Shown here: positions 11,157 through 48,740 of the stretch, piece after piece
Layout of the letters: every line of letters begins with the position of its first letter
How positions within the stretch are numbered: the first letter of the stretch is position 1
NCBI GenBank assembly: GCA_027604505.1
Contig: JADIIX010000006.1
Coordinates: 248,001-308,043, forward strand
Source: Gonapodya sp. JEL0774
Taxonomy: Eukaryota
DNA length: 60,043 nucleotides
Direction: 5' to 3'
The notes under the pieces: generated by a model
The model's database searches: none
What the model was told of the DNA's origin: nothing
What the model saw: the letters and a program-made list of their open reading frames with translations, nothing else
Made by a program: the position numbers and the translations under genes

Positions 11157-13015
11157 TCAGACGGAGTCCTTCGTTGCTAGATTTTTGTGAAGAAATTCCA
11201 CAATTCGATCATAAAGCTCAGGTGTCAGTGACTTGTAGTACTTAACCTGCAAGTGTTTGGAGGAAATCATTTGCAATACTTGGTCAATAAAGTGGGTCAC
11301 TCTCTGCTTGCATAGCCACTCAAGTACCTTGTTGTCTAGTCCCCCTAGCACGTTCAACAATGCCTGAGTAAATTGATTACCTTCGGATTCTACAACATGT
11401 CGAAGCAAATGCTGAAGCACGTGTTGATAATATATGGGAACGAGACTGTGTGAAGGTAGCACTTGACAAAGATTGTTTCTCACCTGGTTCGATTTCACGC
11501 CAAACGCCACGGCTTTTGTTCGTGGCAGTCGAATAAGCGTTTGCCGCTCAGTGCGATAGTAAACTTGGTCTCCGGTTTTGTCCTGAGATTGATGGACAAG
11601 CTCATCTCCACGATATGCCGGAGAAGTCGCGTGACTTTGATGATCCTTTCGCCACAATCGACAATCAGTCGTCAGAATCCAATTAAAGCGGTTAATCGGC
11701 TTTCCTTCTCGAAGTCCGGATGAGAAGAACCTGAGTGAAGTATGTACGATGAGACGAAATGAAAACTGGGGGCACGAGGCAATCTCCTCAGATTGCTCGC
11801 GCACTTGTTCATACTCTTTCGCAGCACTGAGTCATAGCTTGGTACCGGGTTGTGGACAAAGGACATAATGCGGCCTATGCGATCCCTTTGAAGGAAACCT
11901 TGGAAACAAAATGTGCTGTTTAATCATCATCACAACATTGCATTTATGACATACTTGTCTCACCTGGAAAGGTGAAAATGTTGACTGCGGACACGAAACG
12001 GTACTGTGCAACTCCGCCGTCCAAATCGGGATCGGGCTCTTCGGTACCGGGCATGACGATTATCCAGTCCGCCTGGAGGCGTCAGTGATGAAATGAAAAC
12101 GGAACACAGCTTGAAAGTCGCGACGTAGACGTCATCATTCTCACTTGTGTCAAGAGGCCCAGGACGTATAGAGGCCTCTCCCAATCCTTGCCCCCTGGTC
12201 CGAGATCCCATTCATCTCCACGCAGCTTGTTAGCAAACGTCCTTCGCCCATCTGGACTTGTGTTCCACATAAAGGACGTCGGAAAACGCTTGCCAAGGTA
12301 ATCAATTACGACTTCTAGCATTTCGCGGTTGGCGTCCGCCAGTTTGTCAAGGTCAACGAGCTTGTCGTAGGGAGCAGGCGGTTGGTGGCAAATAACTTCT
12401 TCATACGCCTTTGATATCGCATCTTTTCGAATGTCCATGTCAGCTTGATACTTTGTGATGGTGATTGGTTACCAGTTGGCGACGGTGATGGTGTGACCCG
12501 TGACTTTCACACAAAACGTACATGTGAGTCTATTTCAATAATTTCATCAACTGGACATATGGAGAGGTCTGAAAAGCGGGGATGGGGAATACACGGGTAT
12601 TGAATCAGGAACTTCCCATCACACGATCCACGGATTCTCCAGAGAAGTTATGGACTCACTCACTCATCTTTTGACGATGTGGTATTGGAGTACCAAGGAC
12701 TCCTTGCTTGTTTCTGTTGTGAGATGAATGAGGTACATGTCCATCAATGACTATCGCGGAAATATCAGCTCACATCGCTGGAGGAGGAAACTCTCCCACA
12801 AAAGGCTCAACCTTCACTGACGGCATTATCAACGATGCTCCGTCGACTGCCACTTCTCTGTTTTCCTGATCCTCATTCGAAAGCTCGTGTTGACGAACAA
12901 GGGAGTGTAGGATATCAATCACCTCGGGCGATCGGAACGCGATCGACACTGCGATCACAGCGCTGGCGGCGATAGCGGAAGAAACTAGCAGTGAATGCGA
13001 GAGTTGCTGGGACAT
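11157..13015 (-). CDS. DUF3445 / heme-dependent oxidative N-demethylase alpha-subunit-like protein, multi-exon
   Basis: YLGKRFPTSF, FVHNPVPSY, KPINRFNW and YRTERQTLIRLPRTKAVAFGVK are DUF3445 hallmarks. N-terminal hydrophobic anchor. Confidence 0.8.
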
Positions 13016-13171: not shown

Positions 13172-13330
13172 GACTCCAACTCCAAATCCGTCCCCCAAAT
13201 CCAATCCAAAACCGTCCTAAACCAATCCCAAACCAGTCCCAACCCCGTCCCAAACCTATTCCAAATCCGTTTCCAACTCCCAACTCCCAACCTCCAACCA
13301 TCCCGCCTCCCCAAACTCTCCCTCTTCCTT
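13172..13330. repeat. Degenerate C-rich (G-rich on - strand) short tandem repeat tract
   Basis: Iterated units such as tccaac, tccaaa, tcccaa and aactccc, with very few G on the + strand. Confidence 0.8.
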
Positions 13331-14270
13331 CAACCGGCCGCAGCTGTGGCAACCGGTGCCGGAACCGGCGCGTGGGCCCGGAACCTGCGCCTGAAGTTGG
13401 CAGGGCGCGCGCCGGTGTGCAATTTGCGGTACAGGAAGACGGCGCGGATGTTGAGTGCCGCGTTAATGCCACTGTGCCACCTCACGGCGCACCGCGGGCA
13501 CCGCTTCCGCCGCCAGTCCCGCCCCTGGCCATTTGCCATGTAGGTCGGGTTGCCGTTGAAGAAGCACTAGTTGCACTCGATGGACGTGCGGTCCTCATTT
13601 TCAGAAACGAAGGCGTGGACGGACGTGCTGTTTCTCGAGCAGCAACTTACAGACCTTCTTCAATGGCATCGACGACCCACGGATGCCCGCATGTTGACAA
13701 CGTCCAGGTCCCCAACGGCCAGCAAAATGTCCAACGGCCTCATCCCCCGCTCCTTCCGCTTCGCTTTGTCCCGGTCCCGCTTGGCCACAAACCCAAAGTC
13801 CTTCCCGTCTGGCTCGCTCTGCCCAAGGATGGCGAACCGACGCGCGATTTGGTGGGGCGCGCGCGGCTTTGCGATGGTGCTGGACCATCGGCCCCTCCGA
13901 GAAGCCCCCTCGCGGTAGCAATCCAACAACACCTCGCCAAACTCCGAAATCTGCTCGAGCCGGCTAGTGAGGCCGGCTGCGTCCGAGGTTTTCAACGTGA
14001 CGAGTTGGCTCTCGAGCCACGAAAAGTCCATGTCCTCCTTGTAAGCGTTGAGGCGGCGGGTGGCTCGGTTCTTGCCGATTTGCTCGAAGTACTCGTCGCG
14101 TTGAAGGAGACAGACGGCTTGACGCCGACCTCCGCCGCGGGTCCGCCGGTTGACACATCCACCAGGTTTGTGGGGTCAAGGCCCAGGACGATGGTGTTGG
14201 GGTGCATAGGGACGGGTTGGAGGGGAGGTTGCGGTGGGAGGCGTTGCCGCTGCCCACGCTTCACGGTCCG
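13330..14270 (-). pseudogene. Fanzor (eukaryotic TnpB-like RNA-guided RuvC nuclease) relic, 5'-truncated and frameshifted
   Basis: Motifs in order across frames: IVLGLDP (RuvC-I, 14172-14192), DEYFEQIG..LKT..CY..RRGRW..IAKPRA, ILLAVGD, NEDRTSIECN*C (RuvC-II plus first Zn pair, 13564-13599), CPRC..WHSGINAALNI (second Zn pair plus RuvC-III, from 13447), RPANF. Intronless and GC-richer than its neighbours. Confidence 0.85.
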
Positions 14271-14355
14271 CTAAAGTTGAGCATGTGCACTGACACCCGT
14301 GACAACTCCATTTGCTGATGACAATACAGATGTGATACGGGGGACTCTCACGTTC

Positions 14356-15138
14356 CTATGATTGATTCCTAAATACATCAAAGCTATTATCTTTAATCAT
14401 CTGCCAGCAGCACCATATTCCCACCGCCGGGCCTATGATCCAAATAATATTGGAAATCCAGACAACTGCCATACCGGCAATGGTCTTCCCCCTCTGACGG
14501 TCGTTAAGAAAAAAGGACGTAAAATACAAGATAGTGCCCACAAGTTCTTGCCAAAAAAACAGGGCGTTGGTGAACCCCAGGAGGCGTGGGGATAGGGAGA
14601 GAGGGGGGGGCAGTTCGACTGTCAACGAGAGAAGGAGGTGGACCGTAGGAAGGAAAGTGACGAAACCATTGCCGATATCCACAGTGAATCCGAACGTGGT
14701 TTGGTCCGAATAGCTTCAATGGGGTTGATGAAGGTCGTCAATTCATGGGAGTGATTACAGGATACTCAATGATCAACATTCAAACGTCATTCGTGCCACA
14801 CCAGCTCACCTTGGATCCAGTAACGAGTACGTACTCCATACTCTAGACCAGTACTTCATGGACAGTGCGTCCGACAAATCTACGTGTTCGAAAAGGAATA
14901 TGTTGCGGGGAAGCTTGTCTTTACCCCAAACCTTTCTGAGATCGTCGTACTGCTGTTTGATGAGCCGTCGATGAATGAACAAAGTCATTTCCCATAGACA
15001 AATCAAAACGTTTATGAGGAGAAAGAGGGAGAGTGCGAGGTACATCGGAGGTAGCGAGCCATATGCATTGAGGTGGAGAAAGGCGAGGCCGAGGAAAGGC
15101 CCGCCTACCAAGAGCGAGCAGTAAAAGATTGCAAGCAT
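14356..15138 (-). CDS. Emopamil-binding (EBP/EXPERA-like) membrane protein, 2 exons
   Basis: Intron 14714-14809 joins VWSTYSLLDP-SYSDQTTFGFTVDIGNG. Also NVLICLWE, FWQELVGTILYF, SNIIWIIGP. Several TM helices. Confidence 0.6.
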
Positions 15139-15534: not shown

Positions 15535-18091
15535 TCACCCATAGTCCTTCATCATCTCCCTCTCCTCCAGCCACCCCACTGCACTACACCCTGCGGGCCC
15601 TCCCACTCCATACTGCCCCATTCCAGATCGCCCCCTCGGACACCTGAAGCCAGCGAACCTCGGACATGCCCGCATAACGAGCCAGCACAAGTCGACGCAT
15701 GGGAGCAACTCGGTGTAAGGTAAATACGCACCAGTATCGTTCAAGGCGCCAGCGAGGATGGGGAGTGCTTTGGGTGGCGGTGGAGCAGATGCAGCATTCT
15801 CGGGGAAAGGGGTGTCGTGTACCTGGAGCACACGACCTGCCGATACGCCCCGCGCACTGTGCGGTGGGTCGCTTCGAGGGTCGCGTGCGATGAGCGAATT
15901 GGGAACAATCGTTGCAAAGGATGGGTTGGATGGTGAGGGTGCGCATCGAGGAAAGAGCGATGCACACAGCCAGGCACGATAGGCCGCCATGCAGTCAGGG
16001 GGTTCATAAAGAGGAGAGTAACTATGTTGGAAGAACCACGTATGTGGGGAGCAGGTAACGACATGTAAGCATCAAATAGTCAAATGGCAAAGGTCAAAAA
16101 TTACCAAAAGTTTCACTTCCCGGGCCCCGGCCCCCGCGGGGGGCCGGGGGGGCGGCGGGGGCGCCGCGGCGGGGGGGGCGGGGGAACGCCGGGCGCGGGG
16201 GCCGGGGGAACGGCGGGCGGGCAGGAGNNNNNNNNNNCCCCCCCCCCCCCCCTCCCCACTCGCTAGATCATAGAAATACCCACGTGACATTCCCAAACCC
16301 TTTAATTACCCATCCCCACTTATCACCCATATTTCCTGCCACTCGGTCTACCGCCTCTGCAACATTAAATCTCTCAACGTCTGAATTGAGCGACCACGTG
16401 GGGAATGGCGTAGAGTACGCGATTTGAGAGCAGTAGGAGAGAGAATTTGGAGGAATCAGGCGGCAGGAAGAGGGGTCTCAAGTACAGAGGTCGAGGTGGG
16501 ATCGTCGGAAGACATAAAACAGAGAGGTGTCAGCAACGAATGGGGAGGATCACCACTGGCAATCACATCTTTCTCCAGGGCGATTCGATGATCCGCATCA
16601 CCAATTCACAACAGTGGTGAAAGGCGACTCCCCAGAACCAGTGTTGACGTCTCACAAAAACACCCACCGCTAAACTACCACACACTTGGTGACTCTCATT
16701 TTGACGCCTTCAACTGGCAACCACCAAGATGCTCCAATCAACTCACCGTTCTCCTCTCTCGTCACCGCCACCACTGGTTGCGACACCACCTGCCCCCCCG
16801 CGATCATATCGTCAACAACCCAGAGAATTACAATGGCCCCGAATTTGGAAGGTCGGGATAGTGTGACGATGATGTTGCAGTAGGTCGGGGTGGATGACCG
16901 GTAATGGGAGAGGACTTGAGCCGCGCCGGCGAGACCGGCAGATGTACGGTTGGTGCGGAGAACGAGGGCGGTGAAGGTTGTATTGCCATAGGACGTGAAG
17001 TTGGGAGTTCCAGTTGTACCAGATGGTTGGCTTAGCCCGGAGACAACACCAGAAACACTGACATCAGTTCCATTGACCTTCTTTGTGTCGGAGACGGGCA
17101 CAAGAAGGGACGACGTGGAGATGGCACATGGTGTGGCGAGGAGGACATGCAAAGGGATCTGCTGATCCGAAGAAGCACGGTGGGTGACAGAGACGTAATA
17201 CAATCGGCGGGAAACGAGAAAAGGATTCGGTGGGTCGAGAATAGCGAGGAAAGAGGCGGAGGAGATGTCGGCGTCGTCGAGGAATGCTGTAGAGAATGGT
17301 AGATTCACCAAGCGTCCACTCGAGTCTTCTCCGCCATCTGTGGTGGTCGTGTATGTGATGATACGATATGACCAAAATTGAGAGGAAGAAAGAGAAGAAG
17401 GCGTAACGACGGTCACATAGAGGATTCGTCGTCCGAGGTCGTCTTTCGGGATAGAAGCGGCCGGTATTGCGAAACGTGCGACACCAGGGGCGAGTCCCGA
17501 GCCAAATGAAACAACAGTGGATGCATTAGGTGGTGAGTAAGGCACTGGTGGTACGAATGTAACATAGAGGGATGGGAAAGCTGAGGCGGGGGGAACGGCG
17601 CAGAGGGAGACCGAGAGAGTCACGTTTCGGACCACTGAAGCTGTGGAAACGCTGCCTGGAGATACCGTGACCTGCCTGCGAGCAAGAAATGATAGAGGGT
17701 GAAGTTTGCTTAAGAGGGTGTTAAACACGGATCGAGGTGCCGGCGGTGGTGGTGGAGGAGGGAAAGGTGTGAAGCGTCCGAGACCGGATTCGTGTTCATC
17801 CTTTACGTCGCCTTCTTTCTCGCCTTTCACTCCATTTTGGCGTTTCTCGATTCGCTCTCTCCCAATTTCCTGTGCCTCAGTGAGTTTAAACATGCCAGGC
17901 TGCGTTGGTGAGTCTCCCACCACGTAGACAAAAGTCTGTGCTACCGTCCCAGTTTGAGAAACTGCCAACCACTGTGTATCGTTCAACTGAATGCTGGTAT
18001 TTCCTGTTGCGTTGAAGGTTCGCGTTGGAGGAGCTTGACTCAACGCTGGCAGTGTCCAAACTACCACTACCATCAGAACACGCCAAGACAT
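15535..18091 (-). CDS. MID1: Mid1-like calcium channel accessory subunit, multi-exon, spans an assembly gap
   Basis: Signal-peptide-like MSWRVLMVVVVWTLPALSQA, many NxS/T sites, CRLIPPNSLSYCSQIAYSTP, CMAAYRAWLCASLFPRC, YTELLPCVDLCWLVMRACP..GFRCP. The start could lie further upstream, up to 18223. Confidence 0.85.
16228..16237. other. Assembly gap with low-quality poly-G/poly-C flanks
   Basis: Run of 10 N between extremely G-rich and poly-C sequence. Confidence 0.95.
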
Positions 18092-22859: not shown

Positions 22860-25253
22860 TCTATATTTTTGACCGTGGGTGCATCCATCGTCTAAGGAAG
22901 CTGAAAAATGCACAACTGTTAAGAACGGAGCACAGAGGGTCAACGAAATGAAACAGACTCACTTCCGCTTCTTGTCTTCCTGTTCAATTTTCTTCTTTCT
23001 ATCTTCCTCTTCCAGTTCTTCCCGCTCCACGCGCCAACCTATCTCCCTTCGCAGTGCAACATTTAAAGCCACGTTCCTGCTCCTGGCCTCGTCAAGTTCA
23101 CTTGTAAGTGACGATATAGCGGCACGAAGAGCCGCTGGGCTATCTAAATCTGAACGAAGAGCGGCAAGCTCATACTCCAGTTCCTCGACCCGCAACTGAA
23201 GCGCATCGCGAGAAAGGTGGAGTTTTGATATTGTGGCGTACTCTTCACGGTCATTGTGTGAAGATGACTTGAAAGCATTGCTCAACTTGCTGTTATTTTG
23301 CGGTTCGACGGATGCATCCTGCGCATCTCCGGCGTCACTTCTCGTGCGTTCGCGATACAGAGAATCCAGCTCAGCTTTCACTGATTCCAACTCGGATTGC
23401 AGATTCCGGTACTGCTGTTCAAGCTCCGTGTCATCGTTGCTTGAAGATCGTGCCGTGGCCGTATCAGTATCTCGGTCTGCATCCTCTCGGTATGCCTCGT
23501 GACTTTCGTGAGGCAAGTTGGATTCCGTCTTGAGGCGCTCATTCTCATTACGGAGGGTTAGAATTTCATGGCGAGCCGCCGTGAGATCGTCTTTAAGATT
23601 TTGTAGGCTCTCGGACGTCTGAAAGTCATCGTCCTTCCTTTCAGCACCTGCGCGATGTTGTCTCAATTGATCTAGTTCAGATCGCACGGAGGTCAACTCA
23701 TTGCGCGCTTGCTGCAACTCGTCCCTCAATTCGTCATAGTCTGATGTATCTGATCCATTGCTGCCACTCGCTGTAAACTCTTCACCGTTGTCGACAGTGC
23801 CACTGTTCTGCTCTTTCAAATCCGCAAGTTCGGATAAGGCAGATGAGAGGTCGCTTCGAGCCTTCTCCAACGCTTCCTCTAATTTTTTAGCAACAGACAC
23901 ATCGAGACCATCCCTGATTGGTGATTCACCTTCGTCCCCGCCGCCATTGTTACGATCCCGCAATCTTTCCACCTCTGATTGAGCGAGTAACAAGTCATTC
24001 TGAGCCTTCTCCAACGCCTCCTTCAACTCCTCAATCATGGAAGAGTCAGATCCATGAGTGCTCGTTCTTTTTGGGTCTTCATCGTCCCCGAAGCCCTTAT
24101 CCCGCTCCTTCAAAAGTGCGAGTTCCGACTGCGCGAATGAGAGGTCAACGCGAAGCCTCTCTACTTCTTCTCGTAGTTGTTGAAGCTCCGACGAATCAGA
24201 ATCACGAGTCCCCCTTAAATGCGGTCCATCTTCATCTTGAACGAGGTCACTCTCCTCCCTGAATCGCTGAAGCTCAGATTGTGCCGATAGTAGGTCGTCC
24301 CGAGCTTTCTGCAATTGTCCCCTTAGTTCTTCCATCTCTGACGGATCGAAATCCTGAACACTCCTCATCTGCACTTCGTCTTCATCTTTGCTGCTAGCAT
24401 TCCCCTCTTGTAATCGCTCAATCTCCGACTGTGCAAGTAGCAAGTCCTTCCGAACCTTCTCTAACTCTTCCCGTAGATCTTCGAGCCGCGATGAATCAGG
24501 TTCACGAGTGTCCCCCATCTGCGGTTCGTCTTCATCGTCGGCGCTGCTAGATTGCTCCGTCAATTGCGCGAGCTCCGACTGGGCCAACGACAGATCGTTT
24601 CGAGCTTTCTCTAACTCCTCCCTGAGATTGTTAAACTCTCTTGCGTCAAACTTATGGGCATCCCTCGTTCGCGGTTCGTCGTCGTCCTCTGCGTGAGAAT
24701 CTTGAAGCTTTAATTGCTCGATTTCCAATTGGGCAGTCGCTAGGTCGTTACGAACTCTCTCCAATTCGTTCAGAGCACGCTCTAATTGTTCCCGCAGCTC
24801 ATCTGCTGCCGAGGTGTCAGAATCACGGCTTCTTGATGTACCCAATTCCGAATCCCTCTCTCCGCTAACCCCATTCTCCTTCTCTTCGAGATCCTCTTTT
24901 AACTGATCGTGCTGCAATTTCACTTGCGCGAATTGCCCTTGGAGATCGTCTAGCTCGCGCTGTAGTTCCGAGACACGTTGCTGCTCCATTTGAAGTTGAG
25001 AGTCCTCAGCTTCTACACGGCGGGAGGGCGAGAGCGGGGATGATCCTGAAAGCCTATGATTCGCAAGCTCCTCAAGTTTTTTTCGCAGCAAATCGTTCTC
25101 CTCGACTAAGGCTACTCCCATCGCGATGGCGTGTCGCACCCATTGAGCTCTCGTAAACAGCTCGGGCTTCGATTGGGCGACATCAGGTTTCCCAGGTCTC
25201 GATGGTACAGTGGAGTTAGAGGAATCATCTTCTTCGTCGTCCCAATTCGCCAT
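22860..25253 (-). CDS. Acidic coiled-coil protein with about nine ~50-aa internal repeats
   Basis: 764-aa ORF with repeated D..ELREELEKARNDLxxAQSELxxL + acidic linker. A GTGAGT donor near 22962 adds a short last exon. Confidence 0.8.
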
Positions 25254-46816: not shown

Positions 46817-48340
46817 TTAGATTGAGGAAGCACTGTTAATCGCAAAATACAGGAGCAACACAGAACTCCGACTTGACGGTGTAAAGATCCTAAAGATCCC
46901 CCGCTGGATCACCCTGAAGCTGTGTGCCGAAAGGGTGGCCAAGTTGTAGCAGGTGGGAGGATGTTGATCAAACTCCGAACGCTTGTATTTAAATAGAAAC
47001 GACACCAATCACCGAGAAATTGAGAATATATATTAATCGAGAAATCCTAGTCAAGTACTCCGCGTGTCGGAGGTTTTCAGCCACATGTAATGTCCGTCCC
47101 GCACAGGTAGCTCTTTCCATTGCTCGCAGACTCAGCTTATTCCCTGACACAGTCGCGGCAAGAACCACAAGCAGGGTCGTAATTGCGATGAACCTTGGCG
47201 GTGAATCGAAATGCGGGTAATGCCCACTTTGGCCACATCGCTCGACTATCTTCAAAACCTCGATGTATGTGACAGCGGTGGCTGGGAGATTCCTTACTAA
47301 CTCCAGGAGTTTGACTCGAAAGAATGCTTGACCGCAGTGGAGCACCACGACTGACTGAGACCCTTGTACATCTGCGAGTTAAGTTCCAATTCTGCTCAGA
47401 AGAGATACTCATATGACAATTCAAAGGTGTGAAAGGAAACGATGCACAATTCAATATCTGTGTGAGTGCCTCTCTCAGCGTCTCAAACATATATTGCGAC
47501 GTACAAATTATGTTAAACAATAGTGCTAGAAGAATCAGAGTTTCGAATCCCGTCTCAAAGCCTGAAAAGCAGAATTGCATAAACTGATCAATTGCGGACT
47601 CGTCAATTACAAAGAACCCTGTGCCTGCCTCTCCAAGCACAATCCACCAGAGAAATTATGATTGTTCTTAGAAGTACTTTCATTGGGCGCGGGGAGCTCG
47701 GTAAACGTTTCTAGGATTCTGAGCTACCATCGCAGCACAAGCATGAGCGATTTAGCTTCATTGACTTACTTTCCTAGGTAAGATCAGCTTTCCCCTGAAC
47801 TGGCTGACCAGAGGTCCTTCTCCACTAAGAGAATCACCATGGAGTGTTCGTCTCATCGACGGGACAGAGCATCATCCATTCCATGTCAAGCGGTTTCATT
47901 ACATACGCCACTCCAAATAGCAAGACTGCATTTGTTTTTATGGCTGTCGCGGAACTCGGAGCCCCCCAAGCAGAAGTACGCCAGTCCGTTTCAAGTATCG
48001 AAGCGGGTTCCCCGCGAGCTCCATGACAAGCCACCAAGAAGGGGAGCACCTTTGCGCCAATGACAAAAGGGTGATGCGGTGTCACAAGCAGGTGTGAATG
48101 AAGCTACTCCGGGGGCGCGAGACTGATACCGATTCCCTCGCCGAAAGCGATTCCACCGCATTCCTGGAGAAGCTGCATCCTGAGTACAGCCACGCAGCGT
48201 TCACAGTAATAACTGATGGAAGATCACTGAGATGCGTCGCAAATCCTCCGGAATGGCCCAGACGAGACGTATCAATGCAATCCAAGGAGAGCGCGGCACC
48301 CAGTGACAGGGTCACAGAGAAGCCACACGTTTGCTAGCAC
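46817..48340 (-). CDS. Hypothetical protein (possible multi-exon gene)
   Basis: Successive - strand ORFs of 63-167 aa between ADH and the 2OG oxygenase. No family recognised. Confidence 0.3.
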
Positions 48341-48740
48341 AAACAGCCATCGAAGGCAGTAGCTGGCAGTTGGCAGCGATGGGGACGCAGAAACGGTGGG
48401 AGGAATTAAAATGCGCAACAGGTAAAATCAATTCCACGGTGATTGCTGTCGGTTCTATTTAAAAACAATCCTCACCACTGATACCGTCCCACAACTAGGC
48501 CATCTTTGGTGTACACATCTACATTGATAAATCGGGGGATTTTACACCATCTGACACTCTCGGTGACACTGAGACGCTCGTCAGAGAGGACGGGGGAGGG
48601 TCCTCCTGGTGGTGGGGTAGGGTAATAGATTAGGTAATATAACTCGGCCCGCGATCCGTCGAGCGTATTTGAGTCATTCGCCTCCACTCCAAGTTTTTAA
48701 CCAGATTCAGAGAAACTTTTATACATCAATATCTTTCGCA

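What the first reader, a model, noticed from the sequence alone, without database searches (positions are those of the whole stretch)
13330..14270. Hidden Fanzor (eukaryotic TnpB-like RNA-guided nuclease) relic split over three reading frames
Seen in sequence: joining - strand frames gives PNTIVLGLDPTNLV... / RDEYFEQIGKNRATRRLNAYKEDMDFSWLESQLVTLKTSD...LLDCYREGASRRGRWSSTIAKPRAPHQIARRF...ILLAVGD... / GSSMPLKKVCKLL / VSENEDRTSIECN*CFF...KRCPRCAVRWHSGINAALNIRAVFLY...RPANF. Established: TnpB/Fanzor proteins carry RuvC-I (GxDPG), RuvC-II (E in xExxTSxxC), a CxxC..CxxC zinc ribbon and RuvC-III (RDxNAAxNI) in this order. The long helical insert after RuvC-I, the hhhGD strand and the terminal RPxxF fit Fanzor1. 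Lesions: a frameshift near 14100, two compensating frameshifts near 13690 and 13625, TAG at 13567-13569, the RuvC-III RD reading SG, and a missing REC/WED N-terminal half. Inference: this is a dead copy, so intact relatives with their own TAM and omegaRNA may exist elsewhere in this genome or lineage. The ORF track hides it because the longest ORF here (13372-14274, +) is on the antisense strand.
Basis: partly seen in the sequence, partly recalled or inferred. Interest (0 to 1): 0.88.

Follow-up and report, generated by a model that had tools for sequence, protein, structure and literature searches.

The report
Dead Fanzor1 fragment in water fungus
Between two ordinary genes of an aquatic fungus lies a real but broken piece of a Fanzor1 gene, a known family of RNA-guided DNA cutters; it is most likely the dead leftover of an old jumping-gene insertion, and a related gene from the same genus is already catalogued.

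Summary
The relic is real. The minus strand at 14270-13330 holds about 300 codons of the C-terminal half of a Fanzor1. The best of 21 hits among 1.84 billion proteins is KXS09892.1 of Gonapodya prolifera (E=2.8e-33, 37%), which Saito 2023 already lists as FZ1. A model of the read-through matches solved Fanzor1 structures first (SpuFz1, Z 9.1). The window matches a gene model of Gonapodya sp. JEL0774 letter for letter; that model splices parts of the relic into a three-locus chimera. No transposase or terminal repeats were found. The antisense ORF is explained by codon bias (328 of 2000 shuffles). Two metagenome relatives share two hairpins around the stop codon, a tentative guide-RNA scaffold that is partly deleted here. 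Intact copies in this genome could not be tested because no assembly is held, and none appeared in protein searches. Verdict: an uncatalogued dead member of a known family; low interest.

The parts
13330..14270 (-). Fanzor1 relic: linker before RuvC-I, RuvC-I, helical insertion, RuvC-II, zinc finger, RuvC-III and tail; about 300 codons over six frame pieces. Homology is clear from about 14246-14228 down to 13372.
   Evidence: Frameshift-aware alignments, 38-47% identity to 5 relatives; phmmer; fold
14172..14183 (-). RuvC-I G-L-D-P; catalytic Asp codon 14177-14175 is kept
   Evidence: relatives read D-P-N here
14148..14171 (-).
14095..14102 (-). Third frameshift, with about two codons missing against relatives
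13708..14097 (-). Longest piece (130 codons): helical insertion typical of Fanzor1, basic linker and the hydrophobic strand ending in G-D
13621..13707 (-). Fourth (placed 13707-13691 depending on the relative) and fifth (13639-13621) frameshifts, with IRGSSMPLKK between them
13594..13596 (-). RuvC-II alternative Glu, kept; six residues lie between it and the first zinc-finger Cys
   Evidence: definition in PMC10711439 section 23
13489..13575 (-). CxxC...CxxC zinc finger, all four Cys kept, interrupted by TAG at 13569-13567
   Evidence: Pfam PF07282 E=6.2e-5, 23.5 bits, below the 26.3 cut-off
13468..13470 (-). RuvC-III position reads Gly where relatives have the catalytic Asp
13350..13359 (-). 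Tentative remnant of the 3' arm of a post-stop hairpin seen in two relatives; about 17 nt that hold the stop and the 5' arm in the relatives are absent here, so the frame runs on to TGA 13332-13330
   Evidence: three sequences only
13194..13268 (.). 11-nt minisatellite, 6.5 copies, downstream of the relic; link to the element unknown
13174..14274 (+). Antisense open frame, 366 codons, in register with the main Fanzor frame; no Pfam match; explained by codon bias
14356..15138 (-). Upstream host gene, hydrophobic protein with one intron, no Pfam match; its frame ends at TAG 14358-14356, 85 nt before the relic
11160..12468 (-). Downstream host gene, PF11927 (haem-dependent N-demethylase alpha-like); a possible first exon starts at ATG 13015 (inferred, no Pfam match)

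Best explanation
This is a 5'-truncated, frameshifted Fanzor1 gene fragment, most likely the dead remnant of a Fanzor-carrying DNA transposon that once inserted between two host genes. Its ancestor would have worked like SpuFz1: a protein bound to a guide RNA made from the element's 3' end, cutting DNA next to a short motif with a D-E-D RuvC site, which likely helped the element persist. This copy lacks the N-terminal REC/WED half, which in studied Fanzor1 proteins binds the guide and the motif, and its frame is broken six times, so it is predicted to make no working nuclease. Its putative guide scaffold also looks partly deleted. Shown: homology, fold, lesions, truncation. Inferred: transposon origin, guide RNA, ancestral activity, neutrality today.
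For: Best hit KXS09892.1, E=2.8e-33, labelled FZ1 in Saito 2023 supplementary file 3; hit KAI3660701.1 is also FZ1 there. A profile of 27 relatives without window sequence matches SpuFz1 over positions 15-303 of 317 (E=1.4e-15) but Fanzor2 9B0L only over 162-286. The read-through model (pLDDT 80) ranks Fanzor1 entries 1-5 by Foldseek (best E=1.3e-4) and by VIA-align (Z 9.1, 193 residues, rmsd 4.5; Fanzor2 6.0, TnpB 6.4). Five frameshifts and a TAG in 899 nt, while the same window holds unbroken frames of 769, 623, 528 and 497 codons. RuvC-I Asp is residue 386 of the 713-aa relative P0009 but only 31 codons precede it here after the last stop, and the whole gap between host genes is about 1.3 kb. 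GC3 is 0.80 against 0.40-0.69 for the 22 other frames of 200 or more codons, which fits foreign origin.
Against: No transposase, terminal repeat or target duplication was found, so the carrier element is not identified. No reads were available to confirm the indels. Retention of conserved columns (0.70-0.76) is within the range of relatives (0.69-0.95), so amino-acid drift alone does not prove decay. The tree groups it with KXS09892.1 at 84/98 support, short of the starred level. Both models were built from alignments that contain Fanzor1 relatives, so the fold result is not independent of the sequence result.
Confidence: 0.9

Rival explanations
1. The protein is dead but the locus is a guide-RNA donor, like the ghost loci of Spizellomyces, and serves intact Fanzor1 copies elsewhere in the genome.
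For: Ghost loci that lack the gene, and whose guide RNAs work, are described in PMC10432273. Two relatives keep two hairpins around the stop.
Against: Here the stop and the 5' arm of the second hairpin are absent and the first hairpin does not pair in register. Folding z-scores are unremarkable (-0.3 and -0.7). No inverted ends. No Rfam match.
Confidence: 0.04
2. The fragment has been taken into a spliced host gene, as in the public gene model that joins the upstream gene, two Fanzor pieces and the PF11927 gene into one 692-aa protein.
For: The model exists (KAJ3343512.1) and its junctions have GT and AG ends.
Against: The model is a cluster of one. It skips the upstream gene's own in-frame ending and stop at 14356, and it treats conserved Fanzor coding sequence at 14129-14070 as an intron, which is how gene finders step over frameshifts (inference).
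Confidence: 0.03
3. The lesions are assembly errors and the gene is an intact or nuclease-dead (TldR-like) Fanzor.
For: Several indels are single bases; no reads could be checked. RuvC-I Asp, RuvC-II Glu and four Cys are kept.
Against: Base errors cannot remove about 370 codons. No N lies near the locus (only 16228-16237). Long host frames nearby are unbroken. The two closest relatives held as DNA are also broken.
Confidence: 0.02
4. The 366-codon antisense frame is a new gene and the reason the DNA is kept.
For: It spans the whole relic, across the frameshifts.
Against: The main Fanzor frame has 0 TTA/CTA/TCA in 227 codons and GC3 0.82; 328 of 2000 codon shuffles give a frame as long. No Pfam match.
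Confidence: 0.01

Closest known systems
KXS09892.1, Gonapodya prolifera JEL478, 449 aa, labelled FZ1 in Saito et al. 2023 (PMC10432273, supplementary file 3)
   Same: Collinear from before RuvC-I to the C-terminus; 37-41% identity; shared D-P-[N]-K-P-G-G, EDRTS-x-ECN and C-terminal R-P-x-N-F motifs; same genus.
   Different: KXS09892.1 is one open frame with all three catalytic residues (D165, E370, D415) and keeps about 150 more N-terminal residues. The window copy has five frameshifts, a stop and D to G. Whether the two are the same insertion is untested.
SpuFz1 / Spu-1 elements of Spizellomyces punctatus (PDB 8GKH; PMC10432273)
   Same: Best structural match (Z 9.1 over chain residues 404-633); also reads D-P-N at RuvC-I; partial copies are common in that genome (19 full-length of 42 loci).
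   Different: Only 15-18% identity. SpuFz1 is active, 2.1 kb, with 30-nt inverted repeats and a 75-nt guide scaffold; none of these is shown here.
Fanzor2 (ApmFz2, PDB 9B0L) and prokaryotic TnpB (ISDra2, PDB 8H1J)
   Same: RuvC plus zinc-finger order; the alternative Glu is shared with Fanzor2.
   Different: They match only the C-terminal part of the family profile and rank below Fanzor1 in both fold searches. No relative was confirmed in one scan of the prokaryotic genome collection.

Membership tests
Fanzor (any) | RuvC-I D-P-G motif (PMC10711439) | tested here: inconclusive
   D-P is present; the third residue falls on a frameshift. Closest relatives and SpuFz1 read D-P-N, not D-P-G.
Fanzor (any) | Alternative RuvC-II Glu six residues before the zinc finger, with an inert residue at the canonical place (PMC10711439, PMC10530073) | tested here: met
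   E-D-R-T-S-I-E-C at 13596-13573; hydrophobic strand ends in G-D at 13713-13708.
Fanzor (any) | CxxC...CxxC zinc finger between RuvC-II and RuvC-III | tested here: met
   Four Cys kept, TAG between the first two; PF07282 E=6.2e-5, under the curated cut-off.
Fanzor (any) | Eukaryotic (or eukaryote-virus) host | tested here: met
   Intron-bearing fungal neighbours (Mid1, PI31, DNA polymerase B with C4 finger); identity to a Gonapodya gene model.
Fanzor1 (by descent) | Large helical insertion after RuvC-I and closest fold to solved Fanzor1 | tested here: met
   nearest named relative labelled FZ1.
Fanzor1 (by descent) | WED domain with the T-D-G motif and REC1 insertions | tested here: inconclusive
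   This half is missing from the locus. Relatives have T-[ND]-G. A possible trace at 14300-14275 is not significant (434 of 2800 window controls).
Active Fanzor1 nuclease | Intact D-E-D (or D-E-N) triad in one open frame | tested here: not met
   Third residue is Gly; five frameshifts and a stop. D or N is what PMC11423790 section 7 describes.
Active Fanzor1 nuclease | Guide RNA expressed from the 3' end, and a target-adjacent motif | not testable with these tools
   No RNA run was listed; needs small-RNA sequencing and a cleavage assay.
Fanzor1 transposon (Mariner, IS4-like, Sola, MuDR, Helitron, hAT, Crypton) | Terminal repeats or hairpin ends, target duplication, linked transposase | tested here: inconclusive
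   None found, but one end is lost and only one copy is on hand.

The most novel reading that the evidence does not exclude
The relic belongs to a distinct, untested Fanzor1 subfamily (D-P-N-K-P-G-G at RuvC-I, NF[IV]xG[YF]xGH tail) that spans Monoblepharidomycota and other hosts with very different GC content, uses a very compact two-hairpin guide scaffold that overlaps the stop codon, reached this fungus by horizontal transfer, and still has intact active copies in the Gonapodya genome that gene finders missed.
Probability: 0.12. Interest if true: 0.45.

Novelty: new member of a known kind. Interest (0 to 1): 0.2.

Why it matters
As a dead fragment it matters little. It adds one more early-diverging fungus to the Fanzor1 host list, and it shows that the public gene model KAJ3343512.1 is likely a chimera of three loci. 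Its use is as a pointer: the subfamily around KXS09892.1 has no solved or assayed member among the PDB matches seen here, and two relatives hint at a short guide scaffold. An intact member could be one more editing candidate, but thousands of Fanzors are already catalogued (3655 in PMC10530073).

Tried and rejected
Own genome: not held, so copy number, ends and synteny are open. Sequencing runs: none was listed; no evidence either way. Single pieces against PDB sequences: no real match. Word-based search with the C-terminal piece: 0 of 24 candidates. Phage records: no match. Viral contigs: no close relative with the window piece (0 of 7 stretches) or P0026 (0 of 50); the family alignment gave 4 weak TnpB-like loci of 55. 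Prokaryote genomes: 0 of 27 stretches confirmed. Hairpin pattern in viral contigs: 11 matches, none beside a Fanzor, read as chance. 5' extension into 14354-14271: 434 of 2800 window controls and 184 of 1000 shuffles score as high, although the profile envelope reaches 14300. Inverted similarity between the C-rich 5' part and the G-rich 3' tail: 157 of 500 and 217 of 500 shuffles reach it. Rfam: 0 matches. Folding energy of the 3' ends: z from -1.0 to +0.3, not significant. Atlas: no answer. No second Fanzor remnant in the 60 kb. Earlier findings: none for this place or sequence; the 8 shown for 'Fanzor' concern other genomes.

Full report
Observation. The stretch stands out in composition: 100-nt windows inside it are 53-70% GC against 37-57% on either side. 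The C-terminal piece matches Pfam PF07282 at E=6.2e-5, just under the curated cut-off; the other three pieces match nothing alone.

Host. The middle piece found one protein, a 692-aa gene model named for Gonapodya sp. JEL0774 (KAJ3343512.1), a monoblepharid fungus. Its exons match the window letter for letter and join three things: a hydrophobic gene at 15138-14425, two Fanzor pieces, and a PF11927 gene at 12450-11160. The upstream frame has its own stop at 14358-14356, so I read the model as a chimera (inference). The rest of the window holds ordinary fungal genes. The whole genome is not held.

Relatives. Frame -2 from 14100 to 13375, with X at its two stops, was searched against 1.84 billion representatives: 21 hits at E up to 0.001, 6 up to 1e-10. 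The best is KXS09892.1 of G. prolifera (E=2.8e-33, 37%, query 1-241). Saito et al. 2023 list that accession as FZ1 (supplement rows seen), as they do hit KAI3660701.1. A profile search added five closer proteins from metagenomes, 7 hits among 7993 candidates scored. No other protein named for JEL0774 appeared; these searches are limited in sensitivity and see only called genes. In a 21-row tree the relic falls in a 10-row group with KXS09892.1 (84/98, not starred), with the 713-aa P0009 beside it on a long branch (short fragments were left out).

Which Fanzor. A profile of 27 relatives, with no window sequence, hits SpuFz1 over nearly its whole length (E=1.4e-15), then PpFz1, Fanzor2 L79 (C-terminal part only) and GtFz1. 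The model of the read-through (pLDDT 80, pTM 0.63) ranks Fanzor1 entries in places 1-5 by Foldseek and by VIA-align (Z 9.1-8.5; next family 7.0; Fanzor2 6.0). GtFz1 scores only 5.6 there. The relative P0026 gives Fanzor1 in ranks 1-7. These models lean on alignments that contain Fanzor1 proteins. Of the two fingerprints defined by Yoon et al. (section 23 read), the alternative Glu is met; D-P-G is D-P-N in this subfamily and in SpuFz1.

Lesions. Frameshift-aware alignment to five relatives gives five shifts: about 14171, about 14151, about 14100, 13707-13691 and 13639-13621, plus TAG at 13569-13567. P0028 aligned without that pair, and P0027 starts between them. The RuvC-I Asp and RuvC-II Glu are kept; the RuvC-III Asp is Gly. 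The relic keeps 57 of 74 columns invariant in four relatives; its leave-one-out retention (0.70-0.76) is low but no lower than that of P0028 (0.69), so this measure is inconclusive. About 370 residues are missing at the N-terminus against P0009, and the space between the host genes is about 1.3 kb, against 2.1 kb for Spu-1. A possible trace of the last WED strand at 14300-14275 is not significant.

Element ends and guide RNA. No terminal repeats, transposase or Rfam family were found. A metagenome scan confirmed 5 loci among 130 stretches; two are close. Both are themselves broken. They align without gaps around the stop and share two hairpins of 5 and 6 pairs, each with one change on both sides. 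With two sequences this is weak: 130 of 500 shuffles reach it, slid controls pair 23-55% against 100%, and the structure was derived from these same sequences. After the stop they agree at 17 of 24 bases. The window keeps 9 of 10 bases of L001's stretch that holds the second hairpin's 3' arm but lacks about 17 nt with the stop and 5' arm. Guide RNAs of Fanzor1 come from this region and can overlap the last codons, so I read this as a possible scaffold that has decayed here; it is a lead only.

Codon bias. GC3 of the relic is 0.80; the 22 other frames of 200 or more codons in the window range 0.40-0.69, and the two relatives have 0.53 and 0.27. This fits an incoming element that has not adjusted to the host, but a donor is not identified. 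The same bias explains the antisense ORF.

Mechanism. The ancestor likely acted as other Fanzor1 do: guide RNA from the right end, motif-dependent cleavage by the rearranged RuvC site (PMC10432273 section 7 and passages; PMC10530073 passages; PMC11423790 abstract and section 7). That such cutting helps the element persist is inferred from TnpB work (recalled, and stated in the abstract listing of PMC10705468). This copy is predicted to be inert.

Novelty. Full-text searches for Fanzor plus Gonapodya and Gonapodya plus transposon plus TnpB gave 0 papers; the 3 papers that name JEL0774 concern other topics by their listings. JEL0774 is absent from the searched supplements of Saito (file 3), Jiang (2 files) and Yoon (1 file). 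G. prolifera Fanzors are in Saito (2 rows) and Yoon (2 rows). One Saito file was an unreadable scan, long files may be cut, subscription journals and Repbase were not searched. The giant-virus preprint PMC12247965 (passages searched) does not mention Gonapodya. So the locus seems uncatalogued, but family and genus are known.

Verdict. Observation confirmed, reading supported, lesion list corrected. New dead member of a known family; interest 0.2.

Noticed in passing
window 15138-11160 (-), protein P0001: The public gene model KAJ3343512.1 joins two host genes and two Fanzor pieces into one 692-aa protein; likely an annotation chimera that hides the relic.
   Followed up: partly
L004 4048-6204 (+): Unbroken frame of about 700 aa with PF07282 above cut-off and D, E, D motifs, a more distant Fanzor1-like gene, among dense intronless genes including a SPRY/F-box-like one; looks like a giant-virus contig (impression from recall, untested).
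   Followed up: partly
L005 1-2115 (+): 704-aa Fanzor1-like frame open at the contig start, followed by several short palindromes and a transporter gene.
   Followed up: partly
L002 about 174-230: A short palindromic insertion breaks this AT-rich (33% GC) relative; L001 has an in-frame stop and an internal deletion of roughly 70 codons. Both closest DNA-level relatives are dead too.
   Followed up: partly
P0009 (713 aa, cluster of 3): Nearest full-length relative with all three catalytic residues (D386, E644, D688); source unnamed.
   Followed up: partly
window 46983-47023 and 48428-48468: Inverted arms of 41 nt, 88% complementary, 1404 nt apart; could be the ends of a separate small DNA element.
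   Followed up: no
window 23962-24778: Six 150-nt-spaced repeats inside a 769-codon frame with only weak coiled-coil-type Pfam matches.
   Followed up: no
window 13194-13268: 11-nt minisatellite between the relic and the next gene; not a significant inverted copy of the 5' part.
   Followed up: yes
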